Source: Clostridia bacterium (GTDB lineage: Bacteria; Bacillota; Clostridia; Oscillospirales; CAG-272). From it: DNA of 64,000 nt. Where the stretch lies: the NCBI GenBank assembly GCA_017631855.1, contig JAGBSP010000020.1, positions 7,754 to 71,753 on the forward strand. The letters run 5' to 3'. The position numbers were made by a program, and so were the translations under genes. Positions 4,924 to 25,237 of this stretch are shown one piece after another. The first letter of the stretch is position 1, and each line of letters begins with the position of its first letter. A model generated the notes under the pieces. The model saw only the letters and a program-made list of their open reading frames with translations. It searched no databases and had not been told where the DNA came from.

Positions 4924-7900
4924 ATGAAAACAAGAACCCAAAAGCTAATTTCCCTTGTTTTGGTGCTGATGATGCTCGTCACGATGGTTCCCGCAGGAAT
5001 CTTCACGGCAAGCGCAGAAGACGACGCGATCGTGATCGAAACTCTTGATCAATGGAACGCGTATGCAGAAACAGGCACCGAAACTTTTGCAGGTAAGACT
5101 GTAAAACTTGGCGACAATATCACTGGTATCACCAAGCCCCTCGCGGCTAATTTTGCAGGTACCTTCGACGGTGATGGATACGCAATTTATGATGTGACCT
5201 TTGAGGGCGCAGGTGTAATTGCAGCCAAACTGTCCGGTTCTGCAATCGTTAAGAACGTTAAGTTCGAAAACGTTGACATCACGGGCACGGGCAACACCGG
5301 CTTGATTGCAGGAGCGGTAACTGTATCCGGCGAAAACAAGATTACGATTGAAAAAATCAACGTAGATGCTAATTCTTCCGTTAGCGGTGCGGCTGCTACG
5401 GGCGGTCTTATCGGTCATGCAACGTTGAGCAATTCTGCAACCCTTGCTTTTGATAGCATTGATGCGGCAGCTGCTGTTTCTGGTTCTGGTTTGGTAGGAA
5501 AGACCAACCAAAAAGAAGCGAAGTCAATTGGCGGTATCTTGGGTTACGGTTTGGTTTCTACCACAACTGCTGCAGGTGCTACGGCGCCCCTGTTCTCTGC
5601 GAACGCTTGTTTGGTAATGGGTACTGTCAGTGCAACTGGTACTCCTGATACCGCGAACAATATATATATGCCTCCGGTATCCGGTGTGTTTGGCATTTTG
5701 GAGGGTGGCGGTTACAATAGCCACAAGAGAATCTCGGTTACCAATTGTTTCATTGGTGCAAAAATGACGACCACTGGCCCGAATAAGAGTTGTCTGATAG
5801 CAGCATATGACGAAGGTGGTAATTTTACTTATTCCAATGTCAAAAGCATTACTGGCGCAACTTATAATCAGTACGGCGGTGGAAACAATGGTTCTACCGT
5901 AAATGGTGAAACTCCTCCGGCTACTTATTGGGGCGCTACTCACATGAAGGATATTGCTACCGTATCTCTCGAGGATGCTCAGGCATTCTTCACTAGAAAC
6001 GACAAAAACTTTATCTCGATAAAAACCATTGATAACTACGACACGATAGAAACTTTTGAGATTGACAGTGCTGCAAAGTGGAACGAGTTGGCAAGAAGTG
6101 TTCACAACTTTGAGGGCAAAAAGGTTGTTCTAACGAAGGATTTCGACGCAAACGACGAAGAGCTTACGACCTTTGCGAATGTTTTCAAGGGTACTTTTGA
6201 TGGCAACAACAAGACGATCTCTAATGCAATTGTTAACGGTAACGGCGTGATCGCAAACATCCTCGAAGGTGGTGCAACCGTTCAGAACGTAAAGTTCGTA
6301 AACGTTGATGTAACCGGCACGGGTGCCGTTGGTATGATCGCGGGAACGCTTGCTCCTGCAAATACTACCACGATTACCAAAATCAGCATTGATGATACTT
6401 CTTCGGTTACCGGTACAACTCAAACAGGCGGACTGATTGGTATTGTCAACACGGCAAACACCTATACGCTTGCTGTTAGCAATCTTTCGATGAAAGCTGA
6501 GGTCGCTGGCGGAACGACCGGCGGTGTAGTTGGTAAGGTAGGTAACAATACCAATGCGACCTCCCAAGCATACGTGAACATTAGCAACGCAATTATTTCT
6601 CCTGCTGCAAAGGTTCAGGGCGGTGCTGTTGGAGACTTTCTTGGTGCACGCCCTGCGGCAAATACTGCTTCTACAACGGCATCGAGATTGTCTTTGACCA
6701 ACGTTGCAATGCTTGGTTCTAATTATACTTATTTCATTTCCAATACTTCCAATAACGTTTCGAATGTTGCTTATACGAATATGTATGTAACATCCACAAG
6801 TATAGGATTCTTATACTCTGGTTCTTATGCCACTTACATCAATGGTATTCATTGTAAAGATGCTACTAGCGTTGATAGATACTCCCCCACAGTGGTTAAT
6901 ATTGTCGATAAGGGAACGATCGAGATTCCGTGGCTGATTGATGATTCTGATGTGAATACGTATTTCTCCGAGGACGAGAACGGATACGTTATTTATGGCT
7001 ATGATCCTTCTTTGATTCCTGATTATGCAACCACCAATACGTTTGAAATCGCTAATATTGACGATTGGAATGCGCTGGCAGGTAAGGATCATACTTTTGC
7101 AGGCAAAAAAATTGTACTGACTAAGGATATTGATGCAACTGGTGTTACGCTTTTGCCGCTTGCTACTTATTTTGCAGGTGATTTTGACGGTCAGGGGCAC
7201 ACTATTACCGGTGCAACCGTGAATGGTGCTGGTTTGATCGCCGATACTCTGTTGGGTGGAGGAGTTATTCAAAAGGTTTCTTTTGATGGTGTAACTGTCA
7301 ATAATCAATCCGGTAATGCAGGAATTCTTGCAGGATCCTTGATTGCTGATAGGGGAGCCAAGATTAATATTACTCAAATTAATGTTACTAACTCGTCCGT
7401 TACGGGTACTGGTTACGCTGGTGGTTTGATTGGTTCTATAAAGGTAACTGAATCGAAAACAAGTGGCGTGATTGATGTTTCGAAAATTTATTCTCAAGTT
7501 ACTGTTACATCGAGTGCTAACAATACTGCTGTAGGTGGTCTGATTGGCTATGCCGAGGTGAAAGGTACTTCGCGCGATGTGTCTGTGACTTTGAATCTTG
7601 AAGATGCGATTGTTGATTCTAAACTGTCCGGCGGTAACAAAAGAGCAGGTGTTGTAGGTTATTTCCTGGGCGATGCTGCTATTCCTGCTAATGGTGGATC
7701 TACAGACATAAACAATACCAAAAATAACATTACTACTTACTTTAACATGAAAGATCTTGTGGTGAAAACCCAAGGCTTCACTTATAGAGTTGCAGAAACA
7801 AAGTATGGAGCGTTTACGTGTGAAAATCTGTACCTTGTAGGAGCGAAAGATACTGATAATATATTCCGCCTTGAAGGTTATGCATCTTGGCTGAACCAGA

Positions 7901-8484
7901 TTCACCCTTCTCTGTTGGGTAAAGACGGTAATCGTGATTTTATTACCACGGCCTCGATTGCGGCAAGTGGAAAGATGGACGTCCCCTTTATTTTGAATAC
8001 CGTTGCAACTTCGGAAGATGTTGCGAAGATGGCAATGAATCTTTCTGATAAGGAAGGATTCTTGCGATTGGTTCCTCAGCAGTTCCAGGTAGTAGGTCTC
8101 CAGCAGAGTGCTTCGTTTACAACTGACTACGCACTTCGCTTCATCGCTCCGATGTATTTGGAGAACGCTTCGGATATCAAGATGACTGTCGTTGCTGCGT
8201 ATACGAATGCCGATGGTAAAGCAGTGACAAAGACCTTTGAGGCAGAAACCACCATGTATGATGGTCTGACTGCGTACGATGAGTACAAGATCACCGAAAA
8301 GGATCTCATTCGCGCTTCTGACTACGGCGCAAATAAGCTGGCAGGCTTTACGATCTACGGTATTCCTGTAGGCATGTACGATATTACCTTCGAGGCAACG
8401 GTAACCTATACGGTTGGCGAGACGACTGTAACGTCGGTTCCTGTTACCGTTATGTTTAACATTGATGGTGCTTTGGCAAAATAA
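4924..8484 (+). CDS. Large secreted surface protein 1: signal peptide, three GLUG/beta-helix-like modules, shared C-terminal domain
   Basis: MKTRTQKLISLVLVLMMLVTMVPAGIFTASA signal peptide; three copies of I.....WN..A...F.GK.V.L..D...F.G.FDG.G..I and GGLIG motifs; C-terminal QVVG.Q.S...YALRFIAP domain. Confidence 0.8.
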   Translation: MKTRTQKLISLVLVLMMLVTMVPAGIFTASAEDDAIVIETLDQWNAYAETGTETFAGKTVKLGDNITGITKPLAANFAGTFDGDGYAIYDVTFEGAGVIAAKLSGSAIVKNVKFENVDITGTGNTGLIAGAVTVSGENKITIEKINVDANSSVSGAAATGGLIGHATLSNSATLAFDSIDAAAAVSGSGLVGKTNQKEAKSIGGILGYGLVSTTTAAGATAPLFSANACLVMGTVSATGTPDTANNIYMPPVSGVFGILEGGGYNSHKRISVTNCFIGAKMTTTGPNKSCLIAAYDEGGNFTYSNVKSITGATYNQYGGGNNGSTVNGETPPATYWGATHMKDIATVSLEDAQAFFTRNDKNFISIKTIDNYDTIETFEIDSAAKWNELARSVHNFEGKKVVLTKDFDANDEELTTFANVFKGTFDGNNKTISNAIVNGNGVIANILEGGATVQNVKFVNVDVTGTGAVGMIAGTLAPANTTTITKISIDDTSSVTGTTQTGGLIGIVNTANTYTLAVSNLSMKAEVAGGTTGGVVGKVGNNTNATSQAYVNISNAIISPAAKVQGGAVGDFLGARPAANTASTTASRLSLTNVAMLGSNYTYFISNTSNNVSNVAYTNMYVTSTSIGFLYSGSYATYINGIHCKDATSVDRYSPTVVNIVDKGTIEIPWLIDDSDVNTYFSEDENGYVIYGYDPSLIPDYATTNTFEIANIDDWNALAGKDHTFAGKKIVLTKDIDATGVTLLPLATYFAGDFDGQGHTITGATVNGAGLIADTLLGGGVIQKVSFDGVTVNNQSGNAGILAGSLIADRGAKINITQINVTNSSVTGTGYAGGLIGSIKVTESKTSGVIDVSKIYSQVTVTSSANNTAVGGLIGYAEVKGTSRDVSVTLNLEDAIVDSKLSGGNKRAGVVGYFLGDAAIPANGGSTDINNTKNNITTYFNMKDLVVKTQGFTYRVAETKYGAFTCENLYLVGAKDTDNIFRLEGYASWLNQIHPSLLGKDGNRDFITTASIAASGKMDVPFILNTVATSEDVAKMAMNLSDKEGFLRLVPQQFQVVGLQQSASFTTDYALRFIAPMYLENASDIKMTVVAAYTNADGKAVTKTFEAETTMYDGLTAYDEYKITEKDLIRASDYGANKLAGFTIYGIPVGMYDITFEATVTYTVGETTVTSVPVTVMFNIDGALAK

Positions 8485-8502
8485 TCAAGGAGGTTACGAA
8501 CG

Positions 8503-8631
8503 ATGAAAAAGTACAATGAAGCAACAATTGAATTGATTTCTCTCTCCGTAGCCGATGTAATTACCGCTTCTGTTAACGATGTTGGTTCTCGTATGGGATG
8601 GTTCGATGCCAACGAAGAAGATGAGGAATAA
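8503..8631 (+). CDS. Unannotated 42-aa peptide MKKYNEATIELISLSVADVITASVNDVGSRMGWFDANEEDEE
   Basis: Strong RBS AAGGAGG 9 nt upstream; lies between surface protein 1 and its terminator, so probably co-transcribed; below the ORF-track cutoff. Confidence 0.85.
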   Translation: MKKYNEATIELISLSVADVITASVNDVGSRMGWFDANEEDEE

Positions 8632-8658
8632 TCTTCTTTGCGAAAACTGAAAAAAACT

Positions 8659-8686
8659 ACAGCGGTCTGCTTTGGCAGACCGCTGT
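8659..8686 (+). terminator. Intrinsic terminator
   Basis: ACAGCGGTCTGC-TTTG-GCAGACCGCTGT followed by a T-rich run. Confidence 0.8.
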
Positions 8687-8770
8687 TTGGTTTTGGTTTG
8701 GAATAATTACCAAAAAGAGCAGGGTGTTTTGATGAAAAATACCAAAAATGAAAATCTTATTTTCTTTTCC

Positions 8771-8799
8771 TTGACAAAAACGATAAAATTTGATATAAT
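8771..8799 (+). promoter_or_regulatory. Consensus sigma-A promoter of surface protein 2
   Basis: TTGACA-17 bp-TATAAT with extended TG. Confidence 0.85.
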
Positions 8800-8858
8800 G
8801 TATGATAACATAATATGTGTAATTATGCAATCATATCGCATATGAAAGGAAGAATCTT

Positions 8859-10403
8859 ATGAAAAAAAGATTTCAAAAGCTGACGTCTATGGCGTTGGTG
8901 CTGGTGATGCTTGTTACAATGATTCCTGCGGGAATCTTTACGGCGAATGCGGCAGAAGATGGTGATGTAGTGACAATTATGAGCAGAACCCAATGGGACG
9001 CTCTTGATAAGACCCAAACCTTTGAGGGCAAAACGGTAAAGCTGGGCGCACACATCAGCGGAATTACCACGCCGCTTGTTAACGACTTTAAAGGTACCTT
9101 CGACGGAGCTAACTACACGATTTCTGATTCGAACGTTGCGGGCGCAGGCGTGATCGCAGACACGATTAGCGGCGACGCAACCGTTCAGAACGTAAAGCTT
9201 TCGAACGTCAGTGTGGAAAATGCTAACGGTCATGCGGGACTTGTTGCAGGAACAGTATCTGCTACGGACGCTTGGTTGTATTTTTTTAGAATTAGTGCTA
9301 CCGGTTGTACGGTCACGGGAACGGGTCTCATCGGCGGTTTGTTTGGATATGTGAACGTAACGACATCAATGGGCGAAAGTACCATCGATATTTCCAATGT
9401 TTACATTCAGGCAACGGTCACGGCAACTGTTGAAAAAATGGCTGCCGGCGGTTTGATCGGAAGCGATGCTTCGCAAGGTATCAGTGCCACGAAGACGGTA
9501 ACGATGAATATTTCGGATACGGTCGTTTACGGTAACGTGACTTCCAAAAGTAACTCGTGTGGCTTGATCGGTGAGTATGCCGGTGGAAATATTGCTAATA
9601 ACAATGACAATGGCGAGTATGGAAAGGCAACTCATACTGCGTATTTAAACCTTACTAATGTTGGCGTGAGCGGCGGTTCACAATTCAAGGTGATGCACAT
9701 GGCAGGCGGTGCTGTGGCCATCTCGAATCTGTATCTGCTGGATACCAACGGAAATTTGTTTGGCGCGGCTAACTATCGTGCGTGGATTAATGAAGTGAAT
9801 ATGAATGCCATGGGTCGTAACTCCGTTACGGCGGACAAAATGGCGGCGGCCGGCGTCGAAACTCCCGTAAAGATCACGAACATTGAAAAACTTCCCGTGA
9901 TGGAGGGTGGTTTTGTCAAGTACGTTCCCGAGAAGATTCAGGTCGTAGGCGTTCAGCGCAGTGTCGCGGTTGATGACACCTACGCGCTCCGTTTCATCGC
10001 TCCGATTTATCTGACCGACGTTTACGATGTAGAAATGACGATTGAAGCGAAGTATGTGGTTGACGGAGTTGAGGAAACCCGTACCTTTACTTCGATTGCG
10101 GCAATGTACGATTCATTGACTGCCTATAGCAAGTACGATATCACCGATAAGAAGATTGTTTATGCTTCGGATTTCGGTGCTCACAAGCTGGCAGGATTTA
10201 CGATCTACAACATTCCCGTCGGTTTTGAGGTTACTTATATCGCAACGATGACGTATACCTTTAACGGTCAGCAAATCACGTCAAAATCTGCACCTATTAA
10301 GTTTACTGCAACAGGAGATCCTGTGGTTGATACGAAATTGCCGCCGCTTCCCACGGTCGGCTCTGTGATGGGTTGGAATGACGTGCCGGAAGTAAACGCG
10401 TAA
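8859..10403 (+). CDS. Secreted surface protein 2: signal peptide, one GLUG/beta-helix-like module, shared C-terminal domain, Pro-rich linker and VGSVMGWND tail
   Basis: Paralogous to 4924-8484 in signal peptide, module and C-terminal domain (YALRFIAP, KLAGFTIY.IPVG). Confidence 0.8.
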   Translation: MKKRFQKLTSMALVLVMLVTMIPAGIFTANAAEDGDVVTIMSRTQWDALDKTQTFEGKTVKLGAHISGITTPLVNDFKGTFDGANYTISDSNVAGAGVIADTISGDATVQNVKLSNVSVENANGHAGLVAGTVSATDAWLYFFRISATGCTVTGTGLIGGLFGYVNVTTSMGESTIDISNVYIQATVTATVEKMAAGGLIGSDASQGISATKTVTMNISDTVVYGNVTSKSNSCGLIGEYAGGNIANNNDNGEYGKATHTAYLNLTNVGVSGGSQFKVMHMAGGAVAISNLYLLDTNGNLFGAANYRAWINEVNMNAMGRNSVTADKMAAAGVETPVKITNIEKLPVMEGGFVKYVPEKIQVVGVQRSVAVDDTYALRFIAPIYLTDVYDVEMTIEAKYVVDGVEETRTFTSIAAMYDSLTAYSKYDITDKKIVYASDFGAHKLAGFTIYNIPVGFEVTYIATMTYTFNGQQITSKSAPIKFTATGDPVVDTKLPPLPTVGSVMGWNDVPEVNA

Positions 10404-10434
10404 TCTTCCGTACAACAATCTAAAAACAAAAAAT

Positions 10435-10470
10435 ACAGCGATCTGTTTCGGCAGATCGCTGTTCTTTTTT
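10435..10470 (+). terminator. Intrinsic terminator, paralogous to 8659-8686
   Basis: ACAGCGATCTGT-TTCG-GCAGATCGCTGT plus T-run; a compensatory base change relative to copy 1. Confidence 0.8.
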
Positions 10471-10636: not shown

Positions 10637-13360
10637 ATGAAGAAAAGATTTCAAAAACTGACTTCGTTTGCTCTTGTACTGGTGATGCTTGTGACGATGC
10701 TCCCGATGGGTGTTCTCACTGCAACGGCAGAGGGAGAGGTCAGTGCTGAACTTGCGGCAGGCTTGGCAGCAGGCTCCCAAAATCTTGTGATTAAGAGTGT
10801 GGCTGATTGGAAGGCAGTAAGTGCTGCAACGTCCACTTATACGAGCAAGAGCGGTGCAAGCTTTAGTGGAACCACCATTACTCTTGGTGCAGATATTGAT
10901 GCCAACGGTGAAGCCCTCCCTCCCTTGAGCACTGGTGCTTTCTACGGTGTTCTTGACGGTCAGGGATACACCGTGAAAAATGCAACCGTAACAGGTTCAG
11001 GCAATACCGGTCTTATCGCAGGCGCTCTCGGCGGCGGTAAGGTCACCAACGTCAACTTTGATAACATTACCCTTACTACCTCGGCAGGCCACCTTGGCTT
11101 GATTGCAGGTCACAACTCGATTTGGGCTGAAGTTGAGATTTCTAAGATCAATGCTACCAACATTACCGTGACCAACACGGGCACGGGCAATACGGGTGGT
11201 ATCATCGGTAACCACGCAAACAACGGTTATACGCAGGTTGTTACGCAGATCAACTTCCAGGGCACGGTTCGCGACGACAATACGGCTGCCGGATGTAACG
11301 TCGGTGGTATCGTCGGTGCGGCTTCGATCGGCGGTGTAACCAAGTGGTCGAAGATTAGTTTGGATGCAACCGTTGGAGCAGACCAAACCGGAACTACCGA
11401 CTGGGTCGGTGGCTTTGCAGGTCTCTACGGTATGAACGCAGGGAAACTTCTTGAGGTTTCCGACGTTTATCTCAGCGGTGCGATTGACGGTAACAGCGTA
11501 TCCACGCCTCAGAATGCCGGATTTATCGCAAAGGTAACCGGTCAGGCAGGCGCAAATATGTCGGTGATCGACGGTGTCCTGATCGATATGGACTTCTCGA
11601 AGGCGTTTGGTAACTCGATTATCTTTGCAGCTATCCAGAACGGTAACCTCGTTTATACGAATGCGTTTACCACGATGCAGTCCAATAACGGTACATGGTC
11701 GAGCTCGACGGTTCGTTGGACGAATATGTCCTACAACGGAAATTCGTTCTTCAACGGTGTCGCTAACCCTTGGGCAGGCGCAGACCCCACCCGTGACTCC
11801 TTGACGCGCGTTAACGCTACGGAGATTGATGATGTGGTTACAAGAGACAGCGACGGATTTATCGCGGACGTTGCCGCACCCGAAAACCTCGGAGATCCCA
11901 AGACGATTGTGATCAATTCGATCGAGGATTGGAAGACGGTTTCCGAGATGAACGATCTGTTTGAGGGAATGACCGTGAAGCTCGGCGCGGATATCGACGC
12001 CGCAGGCGCAACGCTTCCTCAGCTTTTCAAGGCGGGTAACGTTCGTTGCACGTTTGACGGTCAAGGTTATACGATCAAGAACGTCGGTACGGCAGCCGCT
12101 CCCAACACGGTAGCATTGCTTTCTTCGAAGTCGAATCTCAATATCCAGAACGTAACGGTGGAGAACTGTCACGTTTCGGGTTCGGGCGATAAGGCCGTTC
12201 TTGTGGATTGGCAGAACTGCTGGTCAAAATATACCTTTAAGAACATCAAGGTGTTTGACAGTACCGTTGTTTCGTCCGATAAGGCGGCAGGTATTATCAT
12301 CGGTCAGGTTTCGGGCAATGCAGGAAACTATGGCGTTGATTTTGAAAACATTTTGATCAGTGGTTGCTCGGCAACGGGTAAGTCCAACGGTGGTGGATGG
12401 TCTTCCACGGGTGTTGGCTCTCTCGCGGGTTACTGCGTATTCAATAGCGGCGACTATGGCGCATCGGCAAAGAACATCGAGGTTCTGAAAACAACGCTGA
12501 CCGATAACGCAGAGGCTTCTTGCGTAGGTGGTCTCTTCGGATATTTCAGACATCACGGAGGAACTAGCCTTACGATCGAGAACGTTTACGTCAACGCAAC
12601 GTTTAAGACTCCCAAGTCGTCGGGTTGGACGGGCGTTGCCGCAGGTTTGTTCCAGACGGCGAATTCCAATACCGGTAACGTCAATACGATCAAGAATTGT
12701 ATCACAAACAACCAGTATCCCGGAATCGTTCAGTTCCCCACGCTGTTCTACGCTCCTCAGGCGACCTTCGTTTGGGAAAATCTGTACTCGGTTCAGGCGC
12801 ACAATCCTCTCAAGGCGGGTTGGTTGATTAACGGCAATAACGTCGTAAACGGCGTGGAAGGCGTTGTTTCGAACTACAACGGTATTCCCGCAGAGCAGAT
12901 TTCGATTGCTTCCATTCGCAGTATGATTGTCCGTGACGAGGACGGATTTATCTCGAAGATCAAATCGGTCGTTGAGCCTTACGGTTACCATTGCAGCGAG
13001 GTGAAGGACGGAAAATTTGCTGTTCGATTCCTCGGAACCGCTTCGCTGATCGAAGAGCGCGTTGTTTACGTGAATGTCAAAGCGACGACCGAAAGCGGTG
13101 TGGTCAGAACCTTCCGCGTACAATCGCCTCTCTTTGAGCGCGTCACTCCCTTTGATAAGCACAGCATCGACGATGAGTTGATTGCAAAAACGATCGGTAC
13201 GGAAAAACTGATTTGCGTTACTGTATACGATATTCCCGTGGGTGAGGCAATCGAATTTGAAATTTGGATGTCGATGGAAGCCTCCGGAGGACTTGAAATC
13301 AATAGTACGGAAACGATGACGTTTCGGTTTGACGCCAACGGTGCTCCTATCGTAGAATAA
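10637..13360 (+). CDS. Secreted surface protein 3: signal peptide, two GLUG/beta-helix-like modules, diverged C-terminal domain
   Basis: MKKRFQKLTSFALVLVMLVTM signal peptide; two I.S..DWK.VS...LGADIDA...DGQGYT.KN modules; C-terminal FAVRFLG...TVYDIPVG. Confidence 0.8.
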   Translation: MKKRFQKLTSFALVLVMLVTMLPMGVLTATAEGEVSAELAAGLAAGSQNLVIKSVADWKAVSAATSTYTSKSGASFSGTTITLGADIDANGEALPPLSTGAFYGVLDGQGYTVKNATVTGSGNTGLIAGALGGGKVTNVNFDNITLTTSAGHLGLIAGHNSIWAEVEISKINATNITVTNTGTGNTGGIIGNHANNGYTQVVTQINFQGTVRDDNTAAGCNVGGIVGAASIGGVTKWSKISLDATVGADQTGTTDWVGGFAGLYGMNAGKLLEVSDVYLSGAIDGNSVSTPQNAGFIAKVTGQAGANMSVIDGVLIDMDFSKAFGNSIIFAAIQNGNLVYTNAFTTMQSNNGTWSSSTVRWTNMSYNGNSFFNGVANPWAGADPTRDSLTRVNATEIDDVVTRDSDGFIADVAAPENLGDPKTIVINSIEDWKTVSEMNDLFEGMTVKLGADIDAAGATLPQLFKAGNVRCTFDGQGYTIKNVGTAAAPNTVALLSSKSNLNIQNVTVENCHVSGSGDKAVLVDWQNCWSKYTFKNIKVFDSTVVSSDKAAGIIIGQVSGNAGNYGVDFENILISGCSATGKSNGGGWSSTGVGSLAGYCVFNSGDYGASAKNIEVLKTTLTDNAEASCVGGLFGYFRHHGGTSLTIENVYVNATFKTPKSSGWTGVAAGLFQTANSNTGNVNTIKNCITNNQYPGIVQFPTLFYAPQATFVWENLYSVQAHNPLKAGWLINGNNVVNGVEGVVSNYNGIPAEQISIASIRSMIVRDEDGFISKIKSVVEPYGYHCSEVKDGKFAVRFLGTASLIEERVVYVNVKATTESGVVRTFRVQSPLFERVTPFDKHSIDDELIAKTIGTEKLICVTVYDIPVGEAIEFEIWMSMEASGGLEINSTETMTFRFDANGAPIVE

Positions 13361-13549: not shown

Positions 13550-13638
13550 AATAACAACGAAATGAACGTCATTTTTGGATGGCGTGTGTTTCTGAACAGA
13601 CTGAAAGAAAAAAGGAAAAAAGAAAGGATATTTCAACG

Positions 13639-14427
13639 ATGAAGGCAGTCATTTTAGCAGGAGGCTTTGGAACAAGATTTTCCGAAGAGTCGCATCTGAA
13701 ACCGAAACCTATGATTGAAATTGGCGGTATGCCCATTCTTTGGCACATTATGAAGAACTATTCTGCTTACGGCATCAATGAGTTTATCATTTGTTGTGGC
13801 TACAAACAGCAGTATATCAAGGATTTCTTCAACAACTATTTTCTTCACGCCTCGGACGTAACTTTTGACTTTACCAATAACACTAACCGTATGAAGGTGC
13901 ATAAAACCTATACCGAGCAGTGGAAGATCACGGTCGCAGACACGGGTCTGAACACGATGACGGGCGGAAGACTTAAGAGAATCAGCAAGTATCTCGATCC
14001 CAACGAGCCTTTCCTGATGACCTACGGCGACGGTGTGTCGGACGTAGATATCGCGGCTCTGATCGATTTCCATAAGAGCCACGGCAAGCTGGCAACCCTG
14101 ACGGTTGTTAACGCAGGTCAGCGCTTTGGCGTGATTAAGATGAACAAGGACGACAAGCAGATCACCTCGTTCCGTGAGAAGAAGGATTCCGACGGAAATC
14201 CGATCAACGGCGGATTTATGGTTCTTGATCCCAAGGTCATTGACTATATTGAGGGTGATGAAACCGTCTTTGAGAAGAAGCCTCTGGAAAATCTGGCAAA
14301 GGATCAGCAGCTGATGGGCTTCCATCACGATGGATTCTGGCAGTGCATGGATGCCAAGAGAGACTGGGAGATCCTTGAGAAGCTTTGGAATACCGGCGAA
14401 GCTCCTTGGAAGAATTGGGAAGACTAA
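13639..14427 (+). CDS. rfbF: Glucose-1-phosphate cytidylyltransferase
   Basis: MKAVILAGGFGTR.SEE...KPKPMIEIGG, TMTGGRLKR, TYGDGV, GFWQCMD. Confidence 0.95.
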   Translation: MKAVILAGGFGTRFSEESHLKPKPMIEIGGMPILWHIMKNYSAYGINEFIICCGYKQQYIKDFFNNYFLHASDVTFDFTNNTNRMKVHKTYTEQWKITVADTGLNTMTGGRLKRISKYLDPNEPFLMTYGDGVSDVDIAALIDFHKSHGKLATLTVVNAGQRFGVIKMNKDDKQITSFREKKDSDGNPINGGFMVLDPKVIDYIEGDETVFEKKPLENLAKDQQLMGFHHDGFWQCMDAKRDWEILEKLWNTGEAPWKNWED

Positions 14428-15497
14428 TGCTGAATTTGGAATTTTATAAAGGAAAAAGAGTACTTGTCACGGGACATACGGGCTTTAAGGGCTCGTGGAT
14501 GTGTCAGGTACTGAAGAATGCGGGCGCTGTCGTTACGGGATATTCCCAGACGCCGCCCACCACACCCGCGCTCTTTGATCTGGCAGGTGTTGCTGACGGA
14601 ATGACCTCGGTCATCGGGGACATCCGCGACTTTGACGCGCTGAAGAAGTGCTTTGACGAGGCACAGCCCGAGATCGTTCTGCATCTTGCGGCACAGCCGA
14701 TCGTCCGCGATAGCTATAAGGATCCTCGCTATACTTATGAAACCAACGTGATGGGTACGGTGAATATCCTTGAGTGCGTTCGTCTGTCGAGCAGCGTACG
14801 TTCCTTCCTGAACGTCACGACCGACAAGGTGTATCGCAATAACGAATGGGAATGGGGTTACCGTGAAAACGAGCCGCTCGACGGCTTCGATCCTTATTCC
14901 AACAGTAAATCCTGCTCCGAGCTTGTTACGCACAGCTATAAGGATTCCTTCTTTGCCGACGGCAAGGTTGCAATTTCGACGGCACGTGCGGGTAACGTCA
15001 TCGGCGGCGGAGATTTTGCCAACGACCGTATCATTCCCGACTGTATCCGCGCCGCCTTTGACGGCAGAGACATCATCGTGCGCAACCCGCACTCCACGCG
15101 GCCTTATCAGCACGTGTTGGAACCCGTGATGGCATATCTGATGATCGCGCAAAAACAGTACGAGGATGGCGCATTCGCAGGCTACTACAACGTAGGTCCC
15201 GACGAGTGTGACTGCTTCCGTACGGGAGCGCTGGTCGATCTGTTCTGCCGCACTTGGGGCGACGGAATGAAGTGGATCAACCGCTATGACGGTGGTCCTC
15301 ACGAGGCAAACTTCCTCAAGCTCGATTGCTCGAAGCTCAAGACCGTGTTCGAGTGGAAGCCCGTATGGAATCTGGGCAGCGCCGTCGAGTGTACGGTAGA
15401 GTGGTCGAAGTGTATGCACGCAGGCGAGGACGTCGCCGCTTGTATGGATCGACAGATCGCACGCTTTGTTTCCGAGAGTGCTTGGATCGAACAATAA
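14427..15497 (+). CDS. rfbG: CDP-glucose 4,6-dehydratase
   Basis: VTGHTGFKGSW, HLAAQP, TTDKVY, YSNSK, RAGNVIGGGD; TAATG overlap with rfbF. Confidence 0.95.
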   Translation: MLNLEFYKGKRVLVTGHTGFKGSWMCQVLKNAGAVVTGYSQTPPTTPALFDLAGVADGMTSVIGDIRDFDALKKCFDEAQPEIVLHLAAQPIVRDSYKDPRYTYETNVMGTVNILECVRLSSSVRSFLNVTTDKVYRNNEWEWGYRENEPLDGFDPYSNSKSCSELVTHSYKDSFFADGKVAISTARAGNVIGGGDFANDRIIPDCIRAAFDGRDIIVRNPHSTRPYQHVLEPVMAYLMIAQKQYEDGAFAGYYNVGPDECDCFRTGALVDLFCRTWGDGMKWINRYDGGPHEANFLKLDCSKLKTVFEWKPVWNLGSAVECTVEWSKCMHAGEDVAACMDRQIARFVSESAWIEQ

Positions 15498-15574
15498 AAC
15501 ATCAAAATCAGCGCCGGGTGTCCTGTCGCTGATTTTGTCTGTCAGCATATTTTTGAAAGAAATAGGGGAAGCAG

Positions 15575-16510
15575 ATGGAATACAAAATTCAAAAAGCAGT
15601 CATTACAGGTGCAACGGGTGCCATCGGTATGGCGCTTGTCAACGAGATGATTTCCCGCGGCATCGAGGTAACGGTGTTCGTTCGCGGCGATTCTGCCAGA
15701 GGCGACCGCATTCCCACGTCTCCGCTGGTCAAGAGAGTCGAGTGCTCGCTCGATCAGATGGCGGACTTTGAAGCGCCGAAGGGAGAGAAATACGACGTCT
15801 TTTTCCACTTTGCGTGGGCGGGAACCACGGGCGACGCGCGCAACGATATGTTCCTGCAAAATAAAAACGTCAAATATACACTCGACGCGGTGGATCTTGC
15901 CGAGAGAATGGGATGCCATACCTTTATCGGTGCGGGATCGCAGGCAGAATACGGAAGAGTCGAGGGAAAGCTCTCGGCATCGACCCCCGCGTTTCCCGAA
16001 AACGGCTACGGAATGGCAAAGCTTTGCGCGGGTGAGATGAGCCGCGTGATGTGCGAAAAGAAGGGAATTCGCCATCTTTGGGCAAGAATTCTCAGCGTGT
16101 ACGGTCCATACGACGGTGCAAATTCGCTCGTGACGTCTACCATTCGCAAGCTCGTCGACGGTGAGAAACCTTCCTGCACGGCAGGCGAGCAGATCTGGGA
16201 CTATCTTTACAGCAAAGATGCCGCAAAGGCATTTGTTGCAATGGCGGAGCGCGGCGTCGACGGCAAGGTCTATTGCCTTGGCGGCGGTAAAACAAGAATG
16301 CTTCGTGAATATATTGAGGGAATTCGTGACGCGGTTGATCCTGACGCACCCTTGGGTCTGGGCGATCTTCCGTATCCCCCGAAGCAGGTCATGTACCTCT
16401 GCGCCGATATTTCCGAGCTTGTCGCAGATACGGGCTTTGAGCCGAAGACCGCCTTTGAGGACGGAATTCGAGAGACGGTTGCGTGGTATCGAAGCACCGT
16501 ATCAAAGTAA
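15575..16510 (+). CDS. NAD-dependent sugar epimerase/reductase (extended SDR)
   Basis: ITGATGAIG, GSQAEYG, YGMAK (YxxxK). Confidence 0.85.
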   Translation: MEYKIQKAVITGATGAIGMALVNEMISRGIEVTVFVRGDSARGDRIPTSPLVKRVECSLDQMADFEAPKGEKYDVFFHFAWAGTTGDARNDMFLQNKNVKYTLDAVDLAERMGCHTFIGAGSQAEYGRVEGKLSASTPAFPENGYGMAKLCAGEMSRVMCEKKGIRHLWARILSVYGPYDGANSLVTSTIRKLVDGEKPSCTAGEQIWDYLYSKDAAKAFVAMAERGVDGKVYCLGGGKTRMLREYIEGIRDAVDPDAPLGLGDLPYPPKQVMYLCADISELVADTGFEPKTAFEDGIRETVAWYRSTVSK

Positions 16511-16534
16511 GAAAGCAAATATAGGAGAAACGTT

Positions 16535-17461
16535 ATGAAAAAAGTCAGTATTATGGTTCCTTGTTATAACGAGGAAGAGAACGTTGTCCCGATGAGCGAA
16601 GCGCTCGTCGCGCAAATGGAACAGCTCCCGCAGTACGATTACGAGATCCTCTTCATCGACAACTGCTCGCAGGACAATACTCGCCCTCTGTTGCGTGAGA
16701 TTTGCGCAAAAAATCCCAAGATCAAGGCGATCTTCAACTCCAAGAATTTTGGACAGTTCAATTCGCCCTACCACGCAATTTGTCAGACGACGGGCGATTG
16801 CACCATCACGGTTTGCTGTGATTTCCAGGATCCCATTGATATGATCCCGAAATTCCTTGCCGAGTGGGAAAACGGACACAAGGTGGTTATCGGCATTAAG
16901 ACCTCGTCGAAGGAAAATAAGCTGATGTACTTCCTGCGCAGTATCTATTATAAGCTGATCCGCAAGCTCTCCCGTGTCGAGCAGATCGAGCATTTTACCG
17001 GCTTTGGTTTGTATGACAAGAGCTTTGTTGACGTAATGCGCAGTCTCGATGACTCTACCCCCTTCCTGCGCGGTATCGTTGCAGAGCTTGGACCGAATAT
17101 CAAGAAGATCGAATACGAGCAGGCACAGCGCAGAGCAGGAAAGACCAGCAATAATTTCTTTAGCCTTTACGATGCGGCAATGCTTTCGTTTACGTCCTAT
17201 ACTAAAATCGGCGCACGCCTTGCCGAGCTTCTCGGTGTCTTGATGTGTGTGGGAAGTGCCATCGCTGCAGTGGTTTGTCTGATTCTTCAGCTGACGATGC
17301 AGGTCTTTGAAACGGGTACACCCGCAATCCTTATGACGCTCGTATTTGTCGGCGGACTTCAACTCTTCTTTATCGGCTTTATTGGGGAATACGTGATGAC
17401 GATGAATACCCGCGCGATGAAGCGCCCCATCGTGGTTGAGGAAGAGCGCATCAATTTCTAA
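16535..17461 (+). CDS. GT2 polyprenyl-phosphate glycosyltransferase (GtrB/ArnC-like)
   Basis: VPCYNEEEN, IDNCSQD, NFGQ, DFQDP, two C-terminal TM helices, GFIGEY...KRP. Confidence 0.9.
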   Translation: MKKVSIMVPCYNEEENVVPMSEALVAQMEQLPQYDYEILFIDNCSQDNTRPLLREICAKNPKIKAIFNSKNFGQFNSPYHAICQTTGDCTITVCCDFQDPIDMIPKFLAEWENGHKVVIGIKTSSKENKLMYFLRSIYYKLIRKLSRVEQIEHFTGFGLYDKSFVDVMRSLDDSTPFLRGIVAELGPNIKKIEYEQAQRRAGKTSNNFFSLYDAAMLSFTSYTKIGARLAELLGVLMCVGSAIAAVVCLILQLTMQVFETGTPAILMTLVFVGGLQLFFIGFIGEYVMTMNTRAMKRPIVVEEERINF

Positions 17462-23563: not shown

Positions 23564-25237
23564 ATGATTGAATCTCTGCATATTGAAAATATTGCCGTCA
23601 TCAAATCGCTGGATCTCGATTTCGGAGAGGGAATGACTGTCCTTTCAGGCGAAACGGGCGCGGGAAAATCCATCATTATGGATAGCCTCGGACTTTTGCT
23701 CGGAGGCAGAGCCGAAAAGGAGCTGATCCGTACGGGAGAAGCGCGCGCCGAGGTTTCGGCGGTCTTTTCGCATCTCTCGGGGCAGACGGTAGAGCTTCTC
23801 ACAGAGCTTGGATTTTCAAGCGAGGACGAGTCGATGATGCTCTCACGAACGATCACGCAAAGCTCGTCGAGTGCGCGCCTCAACGGAAGAGCTATTCCGA
23901 TCTCGGTCCTGCGTGAGATTGCAGGAACGCTATTCAATATTCACGGACAAAACGATAACCAACAGCTTCTCGATCCCAAAAACCATATTTTCTTGATCGA
24001 TGCGTATGCCGACGTCATAGCAAAGCGCGAAGAGTATGCGACTGTCTATCGGGAGATTTTGCACAAGAGAGCCGAAATCGATAGCTTGCAGAGAGATGCC
24101 AAGGAGCAAAACCGACTCTCGGAAATTCTTCGCTATCAGATTGCCGACATCGATGCGGGAAAACTGAAAATCGGGGAGGAAGAAGCACTCACCGAGCTGA
24201 CGAAGAAGCTTCGGAGTGTCGAGCAGATTACGAAGTGCGTCACGCTCGTCGAAAAAGCCCTCAGAGGCGGCGAAAAGGGAAAGGGCGCTATCTACCTGAC
24301 CGACCGCTCTGCCGAGGCTCTCGGCACGATTTCAGACGCTCTGCCCGAAGCAGAACAGCTCGTCGAGCGACTGACCAATATTCGCTATGAGTTGGAGGAC
24401 ATCGCCGAGTGCGTGGCGGATCTCGATGAATTCGGTGGAGATGACGCACTCGAAAAGCTTGACCGCGCGGAGGGACGCCTGAGTACCATCGAAAAGCTCA
24501 AGCGGAAGTACGGAAGCACGGTGGAGGAAATTCTCGCTTTCCGTCGGGATGCGGCAGAAAAGCTAGACGCCATCGAGCACGCGGAGGACCGCATCATCGA
24601 GCTTCGAGAGGAGCTCCAAAGCATCGAAGCGCGGGCAAAGGAAATGGCAAAAGCGCTCAGCGAACAGCGAAAAACAGCGGCAAAGGGACTGACCGCAAAT
24701 ATCAAGGAAACGCTTGCTTTCCTCGATATGCCCAAGGTGCGCTTTGAGGTTGGAATGAAGCCCACGAAGGACTTTACAGCAAACGGATGCGACGAGGTAG
24801 AATTCCTGATCGCGACCAACGCGGGAGAACCGCTGATGCCGATGGCAAAGATCGCGTCGGGTGGAGAGCTTGCAAGAATTATGCTGTCGATCAAGAACGT
24901 GCTCAACGAGTGCGACGGAGTCAATACCGTGATCTTTGACGAGATTGATACGGGAATTTCGGGCAAGACCTCGCGCAAGGTAGGAATCAAGCTCAAGGAA
25001 ATCGGAAAGAGCGCGCAGGTTCTTTGCGTTACGCATTCGGCACAGATTGCGTCGCTCGCAACGCATCATCTGTATATTTCCAAAAAGGAGATCGACGGAC
25101 GGGTGCAGACCGAACTCAGAGAACTCGACGAAGAGGGAAGAGTGGCGGAGATCGCACGAATTCTCGGTGGAATCGAGGTCACCGAGGCGCAAAGAGAAGC
25201 CGCCCGTGAGATGATCGACGAGGGCAAAAATTATTAA
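23564..25237 (+). CDS. recN: DNA repair protein RecN
   Basis: GETGAGKS, IHGQ, ASGGELAR, FDEIDTGISG, CVTH. Confidence 0.97.
   Translation: MIESLHIENIAVIKSLDLDFGEGMTVLSGETGAGKSIIMDSLGLLLGGRAEKELIRTGEARAEVSAVFSHLSGQTVELLTELGFSSEDESMMLSRTITQSSSSARLNGRAIPISVLREIAGTLFNIHGQNDNQQLLDPKNHIFLIDAYADVIAKREEYATVYREILHKRAEIDSLQRDAKEQNRLSEILRYQIADIDAGKLKIGEEEALTELTKKLRSVEQITKCVTLVEKALRGGEKGKGAIYLTDRSAEALGTISDALPEAEQLVERLTNIRYELEDIAECVADLDEFGGDDALEKLDRAEGRLSTIEKLKRKYGSTVEEILAFRRDAAEKLDAIEHAEDRIIELREELQSIEARAKEMAKALSEQRKTAAKGLTANIKETLAFLDMPKVRFEVGMKPTKDFTANGCDEVEFLIATNAGEPLMPMAKIASGGELARIMLSIKNVLNECDGVNTVIFDEIDTGISGKTSRKVGIKLKEIGKSAQVLCVTHSAQIASLATHHLYISKKEIDGRVQTELRELDEEGRVAEIARILGGIEVTEAQREAAREMIDEGKNY

What the first reader, a model, noticed from the sequence alone, without database searches (positions are those of the whole stretch)
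8484..10410. Small peptide gene whose C-terminal motif is fused onto the neighbouring paralogous surface protein: candidate peptide-partner system
Seen: surface protein 1 is followed, before the terminator, by a 42-aa ORF with a strong RBS: MKKYNEATIELISLSVADVITAS-VNDVGSRMGWFDANEEDEE. Surface protein 2 has no such ORF. Instead, after the same C-terminal domain, it continues through a Pro-rich linker (DPVVDTKLPPLPT) into VGSVMGWNDVPEVNA. Both end at the same TAATCTTC plus terminator. The VGSxMGWxD residues are kept while several codons differ synonymously (gtt ggt/gtc ggc, gga/ggt, gat/gac), which points to protein-level selection. Known: the N-terminal half resembles RiPP-type leaders (Y..x.I/L...T-x-S), but no maturase is nearby. 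Inference: a Rosetta-stone fusion. The peptide core would act on or with the shared C-terminal domain, in trans for protein 1 and in cis for protein 2, for example as a complementing strand, anchoring tag or polymerisation signal. I know of no described system matching this.
Basis: partly seen in the sequence, partly recalled or inferred. Interest (0 to 1): 0.82.

Follow-up and report, generated by a model that had tools for sequence, protein, structure and literature searches.

The report
Peptide precursor sharing surface-protein tag
The 42-codon gene is real and most likely encodes the precursor of a recently described kind of modified peptide, and its short end motif also sits on the ends of secreted surface proteins, which hints at what these peptides do.

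Summary
A 42-aa ORF (8503-8631) with a strong RBS follows surface protein P1. Its motif VGSRMGWFD recurs as VGSVMGWND at the end of the paralog P2.

The peptide belongs to a very large family of small peptides: 3386 clusters, with leader Y-x-x-P/A...D-V-I-T-x-S and an acidic, Trp-rich tail. It is most likely the precursor of an LPP-like pathway (linear polyphosphorylated peptides; Popov et al. 2026, PMC13381572). An HprK-like kinase, a PqqD recognition protein and a signal-peptidase-like protease lie together on another contig of this genome. They co-occur with the peptide in 57 of 63 peptide-bearing genomes.

"No described system" is therefore wrong, and "no maturase nearby" is true only of the window.

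Two points go beyond the paper. These peptide genes usually sit just behind genes for large secreted proteins (68 of 102). The core's end motif has been grafted onto secreted proteins at least three separate times. Here it is on P2 and on a third protein, and changes within the motif are almost all synonymous.

I found no support for binding to the shared C-terminal domain. Other agents of this scan noted the kinase/PqqD/peptidase trio and the peptide-beside-secreted-protein layout on other DNA. Function remains unknown.

The parts
4924..8484 (+). P1: 1186-aa secreted protein with a signal peptide, three repeats of an N-terminal module and a C-terminal beta-sandwich domain. It has no tag. It is co-transcribed with the peptide gene.
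   Evidence: ORF and translation. No Pfam or NCBIfam family above cut-off. No terminator between P1 and the peptide.
8488..8494 (+). Ribosome-binding site AAGGAGG, 8 nt before the peptide's ATG.
   Evidence: Sequence.
8503..8565 (+). Leader of the precursor peptide, residues 1-21 (MKKYNEATIELISLSVADVIT). It carries the Y-x-x-A variant of the Y-x-x-P recognition motif. Thr21 is the inferred last leader residue.
   Evidence: Family alignment. In the best family members Y is present in 122 of 133, P in 91 of 133 or A in 20 of 133 three residues later, and T lies 17 residues after Y in 129 of 133. The cleavage site is inferred by analogy with LppA, which is cut after T-1 (PMC13381572, sections 7 and 11).
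8566..8631 (+). Inferred core, residues 22-42 (ASVNDVGSRMGWFDANEEDEE), plus the stop codon. Ser23 (8569-8571) is the family's near-invariant Ser and the candidate phosphorylation site.
   Evidence: Ser at this position in 144 of 146 family members. Tails are net acidic in 144 of 146 and have an aromatic residue in the last six in 111 of 146. The assignment of the phosphosite is inference.
8581..8607 (+). Tag motif VGSRMGWFD inside the core.
   Evidence: Against the ortholog in L111 the motif shows 4 synonymous changes and 1 replacement, the latter at the variable position F/G. The flanks diverge.
8659..8686 (+). Intrinsic terminator ending the P1-peptide transcript.
   Evidence: 12-bp stem with 8 GC pairs, then a T-rich run.
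8771..8799 (+). Promoter of P2: TTGACA-17-TATAAT with an extended TG.
   Evidence: 12 of 12 consensus matches.
8859..10331 (+). P2 body: signal peptide, one N-terminal module and the shared beta-sandwich domain.
   Evidence: In the AlphaFold2 model of the last 175 residues the domain core has pLDDT 77-89. Foldseek gives only generic Ig/FN3-like matches, none at E <= 0.001.
10332..10403 (+). P2 tail TKLPPLPTVGSVMGWNDVPEVNA plus stop. It is a Pro-rich linker followed by the tag motif VGSVMGWND (10356-10382).
   Evidence: Kept in two orthologs that are 86% and 88% identical overall. Against L111 the 20 codons D-T-K...V-P show 3 synonymous and 0 replacement changes.
10435..10462 (+). Terminator after P2, a copy of the one after the peptide.
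10637..13360 (+). P3: 907-aa paralog with the same C-terminal domain. It has no tag and no peptide gene behind it.

Best explanation
The 42-aa ORF encodes a ribosomal precursor peptide of an LPP-like pathway (linear polyphosphorylated peptide), in a branch found in Clostridia.

Steps inferred by analogy with the Paenibacillus lpp system and from this genome's gene content:
1. The leader (Y-N-E-A...D-V-I-T) is bound as a beta-strand by a small PqqD-type recognition protein.
2. An HprK-like P-loop kinase phosphorylates the near-invariant Ser two residues after the conserved Thr (Ser23).
3. A soluble, SipW-like Ser/His/Asp signal-peptidase homolog cuts after Thr21.
4. This releases the acidic 21-residue core ASVNDVGSRMGWFDANEEDEE.

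The three enzymes are encoded together on another contig (C6). An LppN-like nucleotidyltransferase is on contig C50.

Shown here: the gene set, the co-occurrence of peptide and enzymes, and the sequence conservation.

Also shown: the end of the core, G-S-x-M-G-W-x-D/E, is a selected, portable C-terminal tag. It sits behind a Pro-rich linker on two Sec-exported paralogs in this genome, P2 and a 949-aa protein on contig C39. The grafts leave out both the leader and the phospho-Ser.

My inference is that the tag does its work outside the cell. On this view the leader and Ser serve only to mature, handle or export the free copy.

What the tag binds or signals is not known.
For: Family.
- A profile of 15 peptides finds 3386 clusters at E <= 0.001. 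Of the best 150, 147 are 32-64 aa.
- Leader features: Y in 122 of 133, P/A three residues later in 111 of 133, T in 126 of 146, S in 144 of 146. These parallel the published LppA motif YxxPxVLxHQxIxFETxxS, which is cut after T-1 and phosphorylated on the conserved Ser (PMC13381572, sections 6, 7 and 11).
- 2 of 30 members give weak, sub-threshold hits to the paeninodin lasso leader model NF033524.

Machinery in the own genome. On contig C6: 24748-25515 kinase-like, 24467-24727 PqqD, 23998-24471 peptidase.
- The PqqD protein matches PF05402 at E 2.3e-16, above cut-off. Its profile hits solved lasso B1 proteins, e.g. TbiB1 at E 3.1e-8.
- The kinase-like protein has an invariant GTGK(S/T)T P-loop. 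Its model (pLDDT 92.1) matches PEP carboxykinase and L. casei HprK/P, 1kkm_B at E 7.8e-6.
- The peptidase is closest to archaeal-type signal peptidase I, below cut-off, with invariant S33, H73 and D89.
- An NTP_transf_5 protein is on C50, E 6.4e-43.

Co-occurrence in 301 genomes of the order.
- Peptide found in 63 and kinase-like gene in 98.
- Both 57, peptide only 6, kinase only 41, neither 197. Related genomes are not independent.
- In 10 of the 57 genomes the two genes lie within about 2.5 kb of each other (coordinates; full clusters).
- The syntenic relative also has the trio, at 82-93% identity.

Predicted complex of the own PqqD protein with the peptide: weak support.
- Score 0.43, best of 3 controls 0.01.
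- The mark was reached by 58 of 80 solved complexes and 2 of 110 mismatched pairs. At 0.60 or under it was reached by only 7 of those 80 and by both mismatches.
- The runs agree in at least 84% of contacts. Partner pLDDT is at least 52.
- Like complexes are solved, so the pass may reflect likeness only.

Tag.
- There are three carriers in the own genome and the same three in the relative.
- Over the three 9-codon motifs between the two genomes there are 7 synonymous changes and 1 replacement, the latter at a variable position.
- Independent grafts occur in L088 (peptide ...DPAEGDNGTGWG, next secreted protein ...LPDEGDNGTGWG) and in L097/L091. Both rank first or near first against about 710 control C-termini.
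Against: - No chemistry was tested. Phosphorylation, the cleavage site and export are all inferred.
- The window's leader has A where the published RRE contact is P, and its Y-to-T spacing is 17 residues against 15 in LppA.
- The precursor is not next to the enzymes in this genome.
- 6 of 63 peptide-bearing genomes showed no kinase-like gene. Two of these are 75% and 85% complete.
- 41 genomes have the kinase-like gene without a detected peptide.
- In the paper's own dataset the SpI homologs from Clostridia fall in other network clusters. Their RREs are labelled 'others' and their precursors are 'ND' (supplement passages). Strict membership in the LPP clade is therefore not established.
- No dedicated MsbA-like exporter could be singled out here; many ABC genes match.
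- The kinase and peptidase hits to curated NCBIfam models are below cut-off.
- Clear tag grafts were seen for only 4 of 99 peptides tested, in 3 lineages. The graft is recurrent but uncommon.
Confidence: 0.75

Rival explanations
1. The core peptide binds the surface proteins themselves, acting as a complementing strand, anchoring tag or polymerisation signal. It would do so in trans for P1 and in cis for P2. In a widened form, the big tag-less protein encoded just upstream is the receptor for the tag.
For: - 68 of 102 peptide genes lie within 160 bp behind a same-strand gene of at least 250 aa. 47 of those have a signal-peptide-like start and 43 are at least 600 aa. Among other genes of the same loci the figures are 110 of 396 and 58 of 396.
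- P1 and the peptide share one transcript.
- In the window, L088 and L097 the order is the same: big tag-less protein, then peptide, then a smaller tag-bearing protein.
- Cores are hypervariable and duplicate together with their upstream genes.
Against: - The upstream proteins share no common domain: Big_2, transglutaminase-like, AXE1, an MFS transporter, or nothing known.
- In the C39 carrier the tag follows another region, not the shared domain.
- The P2 tail is modelled as disordered, with no docking in cis.
- The leader is fully accounted for by the RRE/peptidase pathway.
- No binding was tested.
Confidence: 0.12
2. P2's tail is a by-product of an in-frame deletion in a duplicated P1-peptide-terminator cassette. 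It has no function of its own.
For: - The tail, terminator and next promoter are one duplicated DNA cassette.
- P1 and the peptide ORF are in the same frame, so a deletion of a multiple of three would fuse them.
- The tail is predicted to be disordered.
Against: - The fusion predates the split from a relative whose P2 is 88% identical, and it has since changed almost only synonymously.
- A third, differently built carrier keeps the motif in both genomes.
- Similar grafts arose in two other lineages.
Confidence: 0.07
3. The peptide is a lasso-peptide precursor. Gly28 to Asp35 (GSRMGWFD) would form an 8-residue macrolactam ring.
For: - The leader resembles the lasso YxxP leader; 2 of 30 members hit NF033524 weakly.
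- The RRE is closest to lasso B1 proteins.
- G1...D8 spacing is present in both the peptide and the P2 tail (sequence).
Against: - No Transglut_core3 (B2) match, and only short PP-loop matches to Asn_synthase, in the own genome, which is 85.5% complete.
- The conserved T-x-S lies seven residues before that Gly.
- A ring cannot form on a tail fused to a protein.
- Acidic tails meet the spacing rule by chance.
Confidence: 0.03

Closest known systems
Linear polyphosphorylated peptides (LPP), lppA-K-B-S-D-N of Paenibacillus alginolyticus DSM5050 (Popov et al., Nat Commun 2026, PMC13381572; sections 6, 7, 11 and 12 and supplement passages read)
   Same: Short precursor with a conserved Y-x-x-P leader, a conserved T...S at the leader/core junction, and a hypervariable C-terminus. 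A discrete PqqD-type RRE, an HprK-like kinase, a SipW-like Ser/His/Asp leader peptidase and an NTP_transf_5 protein are present, with no cyclase. Polysaccharide genes lie nearby (window 13579-17461).
   Different: - Host lineage is Clostridia. The paper's main text does not mention Clostridia, and its dataset marks such SpI/RRE pairs as 'RRE others' with precursors 'ND'.
- The leader is two residues longer between Y and T, and the Ser is at +2, not +3.
- Cores are mostly 8-35 residues, acidic and Trp-rich, against 45 residues.
- The precursor genes are usually unlinked from the enzymes and sit behind genes for large secreted proteins.
- The core's end motif is also carried by secreted proteins.
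Phosphorylated and glycosylated lasso peptides of Bacillota: paeninodin (PadeK kinase) and pseudomycoidin (PsmN). Known to me from passages in PMC7533575 and PMC13381572.
   Same: W/YxxP leader bound by a discrete B1 RRE. An HprK-like kinase acts on a Ser of the precursor. A nucleotidyltransferase partner is present.
   Different: No macrolactam cyclase and no B2 cysteine protease were found. Leader removal is by a signal-peptidase-like enzyme, so the product is expected to be linear.
Modular C-terminal tags of secreted proteins, such as dockerins and C-terminal sorting signals. These are recalled, offered as an analogy for how the tag might work, and are not a membership claim.
   Same: A short module behind a Pro-rich linker at the very C-terminus of several otherwise different secreted proteins of one genome.
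   Different: The tag is only about 9-15 residues and is predicted to be disordered. It has no hydrophobic anchor or LPXTG-type signal. The same motif also exists as a free, enzyme-matured peptide. No receptor is known.

Membership tests
LPP-type RiPP system (PMC13381572) | Precursor with a conserved N-terminal leader bearing the [Y]xxP RRE-binding motif and a highly variable C-terminus | tested here: met
   The window's copy has the Y-x-x-A variant, shared by 20 of 133 members.
LPP-type RiPP system (PMC13381572) | Discrete RRE (LppB, PqqD fold) encoded in the genome | tested here: met
   PF05402 at E 2.3e-16, above cut-off. Hits to solved B1 RREs. Predicted complex with the peptide: weak support, 0.43 against best control 0.01.
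LPP-type RiPP system (PMC13381572) | Archaeal-type (SipW-like) signal peptidase I homolog as leader peptidase, with a Ser/His/Asp triad | tested here: met
   Best NCBIfam hit is TIGR02228, below cut-off. S33, H73 and D89 are invariant in 4 of 4 aligned homologs. The gene lies next to the RRE gene.
LPP-type RiPP system (PMC13381572) | HprK-like kinase (LppK) | tested here: met
   Invariant P-loop. The model (pLDDT 92.1) matches HprK/P and PEP carboxykinase folds. NCBIfam ScmC and HprK_rel hits are below cut-off.
LPP-type RiPP system (PMC13381572) | NTP transferase (LppN) and MsbA-like exporter (LppD) | tested here: inconclusive
   NTP_transf_5 is present on contig C50, unlinked. Many ABC genes match, and none lies beside the trio or the peptide in the own genome. 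Both genes are present in the full cluster of L102.
LPP-type RiPP system (PMC13381572) | Precursor gene inside the biosynthetic cluster | tested here: not met
   In the own genome the peptide is on contig C21 and the trio on C6. The two lie within about 2.5 kb in 10 of 57 genomes that have both.
LPP-type RiPP system (PMC13381572) | Polyphosphorylation of a core Ser and cleavage after T-1 | not testable with these tools
   Only the conserved T-x-S (126 and 144 of 146) can be shown.
LPP-type RiPP system (PMC13381572) | RRE and SpI fall in the paper's LPP clade (SSN cluster 1) | tested here: inconclusive
   No tree was built here. In the paper's supplement, SpI homologs from Clostridia are in clusters 4 and 9, with 'RRE others' and precursors 'ND'.
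Lasso peptides | Macrolactam cyclase (Asn-synthase-like C) and B2 transglutaminase-like protease | tested here: not met
   PF13471 gives 0 matches. PF00733 gives only three short partial matches, model positions 8-83. The genome is 85.5% complete.
Sortase-type or other membrane-anchored C-terminal sorting signals (tested for the tag) | Motif followed by a hydrophobic stretch and a basic tail | tested here: not met
   The tails end ...MGWNDVPEVNA and ...MGWGEGVPMG with no hydrophobic segment.

The most novel reading that the evidence does not exclude
The core's end motif is an extracellular docking or sorting tag, and the LPP-like pathway makes a free copy of it. Through its phospho-Ser, and the nucleotidyltransferase and sugar genes nearby, this copy could be fixed to a wall or capsule polymer. 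The large anchor-less surface proteins encoded just upstream, and the proteins that carry the tag themselves, would then be held or assembled on the cell surface through this tag. That would be a ribosomal-peptide-based, sortase-independent system of surface display, and it would give the LPP class its first function.
Probability: 0.12. Interest if true: 0.85.

Novelty: new variant of a known kind. Interest (0 to 1): 0.6.

Why it matters
The LPP class was described in 2026 from Bacilli. The authors state that its biological role is unknown (PMC13381572, section 12).

This window links a very large family of small peptides (3386 clusters) from uncultured Clostridia to that pathway. The paper had left the precursors of such systems undetermined.

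The window also gives two functional clues:
- The precursor genes travel with genes for large secreted proteins rather than with their enzymes.
- The end of the core is re-used, under purifying selection, as a C-terminal tag on secreted proteins.

Together these make a concrete hypothesis testable: the tag acts at the cell surface. They also supply defined reagents for the test: a 21-residue core, P2 with or without its tail, and P1.

Tried and rejected
- Pfam and NCBIfam on the peptide and on P1-P3: nothing above cut-off. 30 further family members: only 2 weak NF033524 hits.
- Own-genome scan with a peptide HMM: only the one copy.
- Word-index protein search with the peptide: only itself and one ortholog.
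I used the genome search instead.
- Full-text search for DVITTS, DVITAS, DIITTS and DVLTTS: 2 irrelevant papers. HPr, kinase, S24 and signal peptidase do not occur in the main texts of PMC12710340 or PMC7470986.
- Stop-codon read-through of P1 into the peptide. The two are in frame, but other loci are not consistently so (read by eye). Dropped.
- Lasso ring reading: rejected.
- Recurrent neighbour families other than the secreted proteins and the trio: only synteny among close relatives, AraC regulators and integrases.
- Foldseek of the P2 C-terminal model: only generic Ig/FN3-like matches, none at E <= 0.001.
- Search for further tag carriers in G406: only the peptide and the adjacent protein.
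- Likeness of the tag to the HPr Ser46 loop: the own HPr reads KSLLGV. Too faint to use.
- RNA evidence: no RNA holder was listed.
- A complex of the peptide with P1's C-terminal part was not run. The single job went to the PqqD-peptide pair.
- L144 ranked first in the tail test, but the match is not at the extreme C-terminus. I count it as chance.
- The signal-peptide calls are from a crude rule of my own, not a trained predictor.

Full report
**1. The observation**

- P1 is a 1186-aa secreted protein from the ATG at 4924. It stops at 8482-8484.
- An AAGGAGG follows at 8488-8494.
- A 42-codon ORF runs from 8503 to 8631.
- P2 (8859-10403) is a 514-aa paralog.

When the last domains of P1, P2 and P3 are aligned, P2 continues for 23 residues, TKLPPLPTVGSVMGWNDVPEVNA, beyond the point where the other two end.

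Both the peptide ORF and P2 stop at TAATCTTC. Each is followed by a strong hairpin terminator and then a perfect sigma-70-type promoter. The DNA from the motif onward is one duplicated cassette. So P1 and the peptide form one transcript, while P2 and P3 each have their own.

**2. The peptide is a member of a very large family**

A single-sequence search of 201 genomes of the same family gave weak hits to small ORFs with the same front half. A profile of 15 such peptides was scored against 1.84 billion representative proteins.
- It found 3386 clusters at E <= 0.001.
- 147 of the best 150 are 32-64 aa.

In the best members:
- The leader reads M-K-K-x-Y-E-x-P-x-I-E-I-I-x-L-x-x-x-D-V-I-T-x-S.
- Y is present in 122 of 133. 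P follows three residues later in 91 of 133, and A in 20 of 133, as in the window.
- T lies 17 residues after Y in 129 of 133.
- T is present in 126 of 146, and S two residues later in 144 of 146.
- What follows the leader is hypervariable, with a median of 18 residues.
- It is net acidic in 144 of 146 and has an aromatic residue in the last six in 111 of 146. It is rich in G, D, E, N and W, and Cys is rare (8 of 146).

No Pfam or NCBIfam model covers the family. 2 of 30 members touch the paeninodin lasso-leader model below threshold.

In a sample of 301 genomes of the order, the family is found in 63 genomes of 40 of the 153 genera, with 1-7 copies each. The own genome, 85.5% complete, has one copy.

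**3. The machinery**

In several loci the peptide gene lies next to a set of genes:
- an HprK-like P-loop protein of about 245 aa;
- a PqqD protein of about 87 aa;
- a soluble signal-peptidase-like protein of about 150 aa;
- in L102, also a 600-aa MsbA-type ABC exporter and an NTP_transf_5 protein.

The own genome carries the first three as a tight operon on contig C6, at 25515 to 23998 on the minus strand. It has an NTP_transf_5 gene on C50.

| Protein | Evidence |
|---|---|
| PqqD protein | Passes PF05402. Its profile finds solved lasso B1 recognition proteins. |
| Kinase-like protein | Invariant P-loop. Folds with pLDDT 92 into the PEP-carboxykinase/HprK fold. |
| Peptidase | Closest to archaeal-type signal peptidase I. 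Keeps Ser33, His73 and Asp89. |

Across the same 301 genomes:

| | Kinase-like gene found | Not found |
|---|---|---|
| Peptide found | 57 | 6 |
| Peptide not found | 41 | 197 |

If only full-length kinase hits are counted, 27 rather than 41 genomes have the kinase without a detected peptide. Relatedness inflates any test on these counts. Even so, the family-by-family tallies of the two searches run in parallel.

In 10 genomes the two genes are within about 2.5 kb. The syntenic relative, an uncultured Eubacteriales MAG (record JAZRLS010000032.1), has the trio too.

**4. What is known**

A full-text search led to Popov et al., Nat Commun 2026 (PMC13381572). I read sections 6, 7, 11 and 12 and passages of the supplement. 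The paper defines the LPP family as follows:
- genes LppS (SipW-like leader peptidase), LppB (discrete RRE), LppK (HprK-like kinase), LppN and LppD;
- precursors of 35-200 aa with the motif YxxPxVLxHQxIxFETxxS;
- cleavage after T-1;
- several phosphates on Ser3;
- no cyclase, so linear products;
- frequent placement in capsule loci;
- role unknown.

The window's peptide fits this logic with a variant leader. The Y-to-T spacing is 17 rather than 15, and the Ser is at +2 rather than +3. By analogy I place the cut after Thr21 and the phosphate on Ser23. That placement is inference.

The paper's main text does not mention Clostridia or surface proteins. In its dataset the few SpI homologs from Clostridia fall in other network clusters. 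Their RREs are labelled 'others' and their precursors 'ND'.

A lasso reading fails, because no B2 protease and no cyclase were found.

The predicted complex of the own PqqD protein with the peptide gave weak support:
- score 0.43, best of 3 controls 0.01;
- the mark was reached by 58 of 80 solved complexes and 2 of 110 mismatched pairs;
- at 0.60 or under it was reached by only 7 of those 80 and by both mismatches;
- the runs agree in at least 84% of contacts, and partner pLDDT is at least 52.

Similar complexes are solved, so this shows likeness at most.

**5. What goes beyond the paper**

*(a) Placement.* I examined 102 peptide genes in 96 loci.
- 68 lie within 160 bp behind a same-strand gene of at least 250 aa (median 812 aa).
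- Of those 68, 47 have a signal-peptide-like start by a crude rule, 12 are cut by a contig end, and 9 have none.
- Of the rest, 9 peptides abut a contig end and 25 have another arrangement.
- Among the other complete genes of the same loci, 110 of 396 have such a start. 58 of 396 are at least 600 aa, against 43 of 68 for the upstream genes.
- Loci from related genomes are not independent.

The upstream proteins are of unrelated kinds.

*(b) The tag.* In the own genome the motif G-S-x-M-G-W-x-D/E occurs at three C-termini:
- the peptide;
- P2;
- a 949-aa paralog on contig C39, ending ...YVPTPGSSMGWGEGVPMG.

In the C39 protein the tag follows an extra region of about 300 residues, not the shared domain. 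The relative has the same three carriers, and a reversed-pattern control gives none.

Between the two genomes the three 9-codon motifs show 7 synonymous changes and one replacement, the latter at a variable position. The flanks change freely. Two P2 orthologs that are 86% and 88% identical overall keep the 23-residue tail, with one substitution each.

Tail-to-neighbour matches that beat about 710 control C-termini were found for 4 of 99 peptides tested, in three lineages:
- the window;
- L088 (peptide ...DPAEGDNGTGWG against protein ...LPDEGDNGTGWG);
- L097 and its ortholog L091.

In each case the graft starts after the T-x-S junction and is joined by a Pro/Thr/Asp-rich linker. The carriers have signal peptides.

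I infer that the tag works outside the cell, and that the leader and Ser serve the free copy only.

**6.

Binding of the core to the shared C-terminal domain is not supported.
- The tag is modular with respect to the domain before it.
- It is modelled as disordered in P2.
- Partner proteins differ between genomes.

A wider version, in which the large upstream protein is the receptor, stays open and untested. A neutral-deletion origin for the tail is unlikely given the conservation and the recurrences.

**7. Earlier notes of this scan**

After forming this reading I looked up earlier findings. On other DNA, other agents described the same trio as an orphan or LPP-like module. They also noted small peptide genes sitting behind secreted-protein genes, and a Gly-Trp-ending tail that also occurs on lipoproteins. 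These are unchecked AI notes that agree with this report. They are not independent evidence.

**8. Verdict**

This is a real feature. The peptide is a new, Clostridial variant of a kind described in 2026. The link to surface proteins and the portable tag are the interesting parts. The function is unknown.

Noticed in passing
window 13579-17461: Directly after P3 lie genes for a sugar-nucleotide pathway and a glycosyltransferase: NTP_transferase, 4,6-dehydratase, epimerase and GT2. The LPP paper notes that its clusters often sit in capsule loci.
   Followed up: partly
window 8482-8505: P1 and the peptide ORF are in the same reading frame, separated by TAA and six codons. Read-through would fuse them. 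Other loci do not keep the frame, so I treat this as chance.
   Followed up: partly
L087 4655-5488, L108 6128-7018 (also L098): In one genus a tyrosine-recombinase gene (PF00589) lies about 60 bp beyond the peptide gene on the opposite strand. This could mean mobility or switching of the surface-protein-plus-peptide cassettes.
   Followed up: no
many loci, e.g. L071, L074, L076, L086, L096, L100: Peptide genes often lie within a few hundred bases of contig ends. This suggests that repeats or paralogous surface-protein genes break the assemblies there.
   Followed up: no
L088 1005-5544: The LPP-like genes of this locus are flanked by a B12-binding radical SAM gene (HpnJ-like, E 1e-115), a probable glycosyltransferase and a probable sugar transferase (for the radical SAM gene). 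These are possible further tailoring genes.
   Followed up: no
own genome contig C39 10814-13675 (-), = L116 1315-4161: A fourth paralog of P1-P3 has an extra C-terminal region of about 300 residues ending in an SDHYP-type motif. By eye it recalls endonuclease/exonuclease/phosphatase enzymes, but no Pfam family matched at E <= 0.001.
   Followed up: partly
window 8584-8598 and 10359-10373; own HPr genes on C36 and C25: The tag S-x-M-G-W faintly recalls the Ser46 loop of this genome's HPr (K-S-L-L-G-V), which is the substrate site of true HprK. It may be chance.
   Followed up: partly
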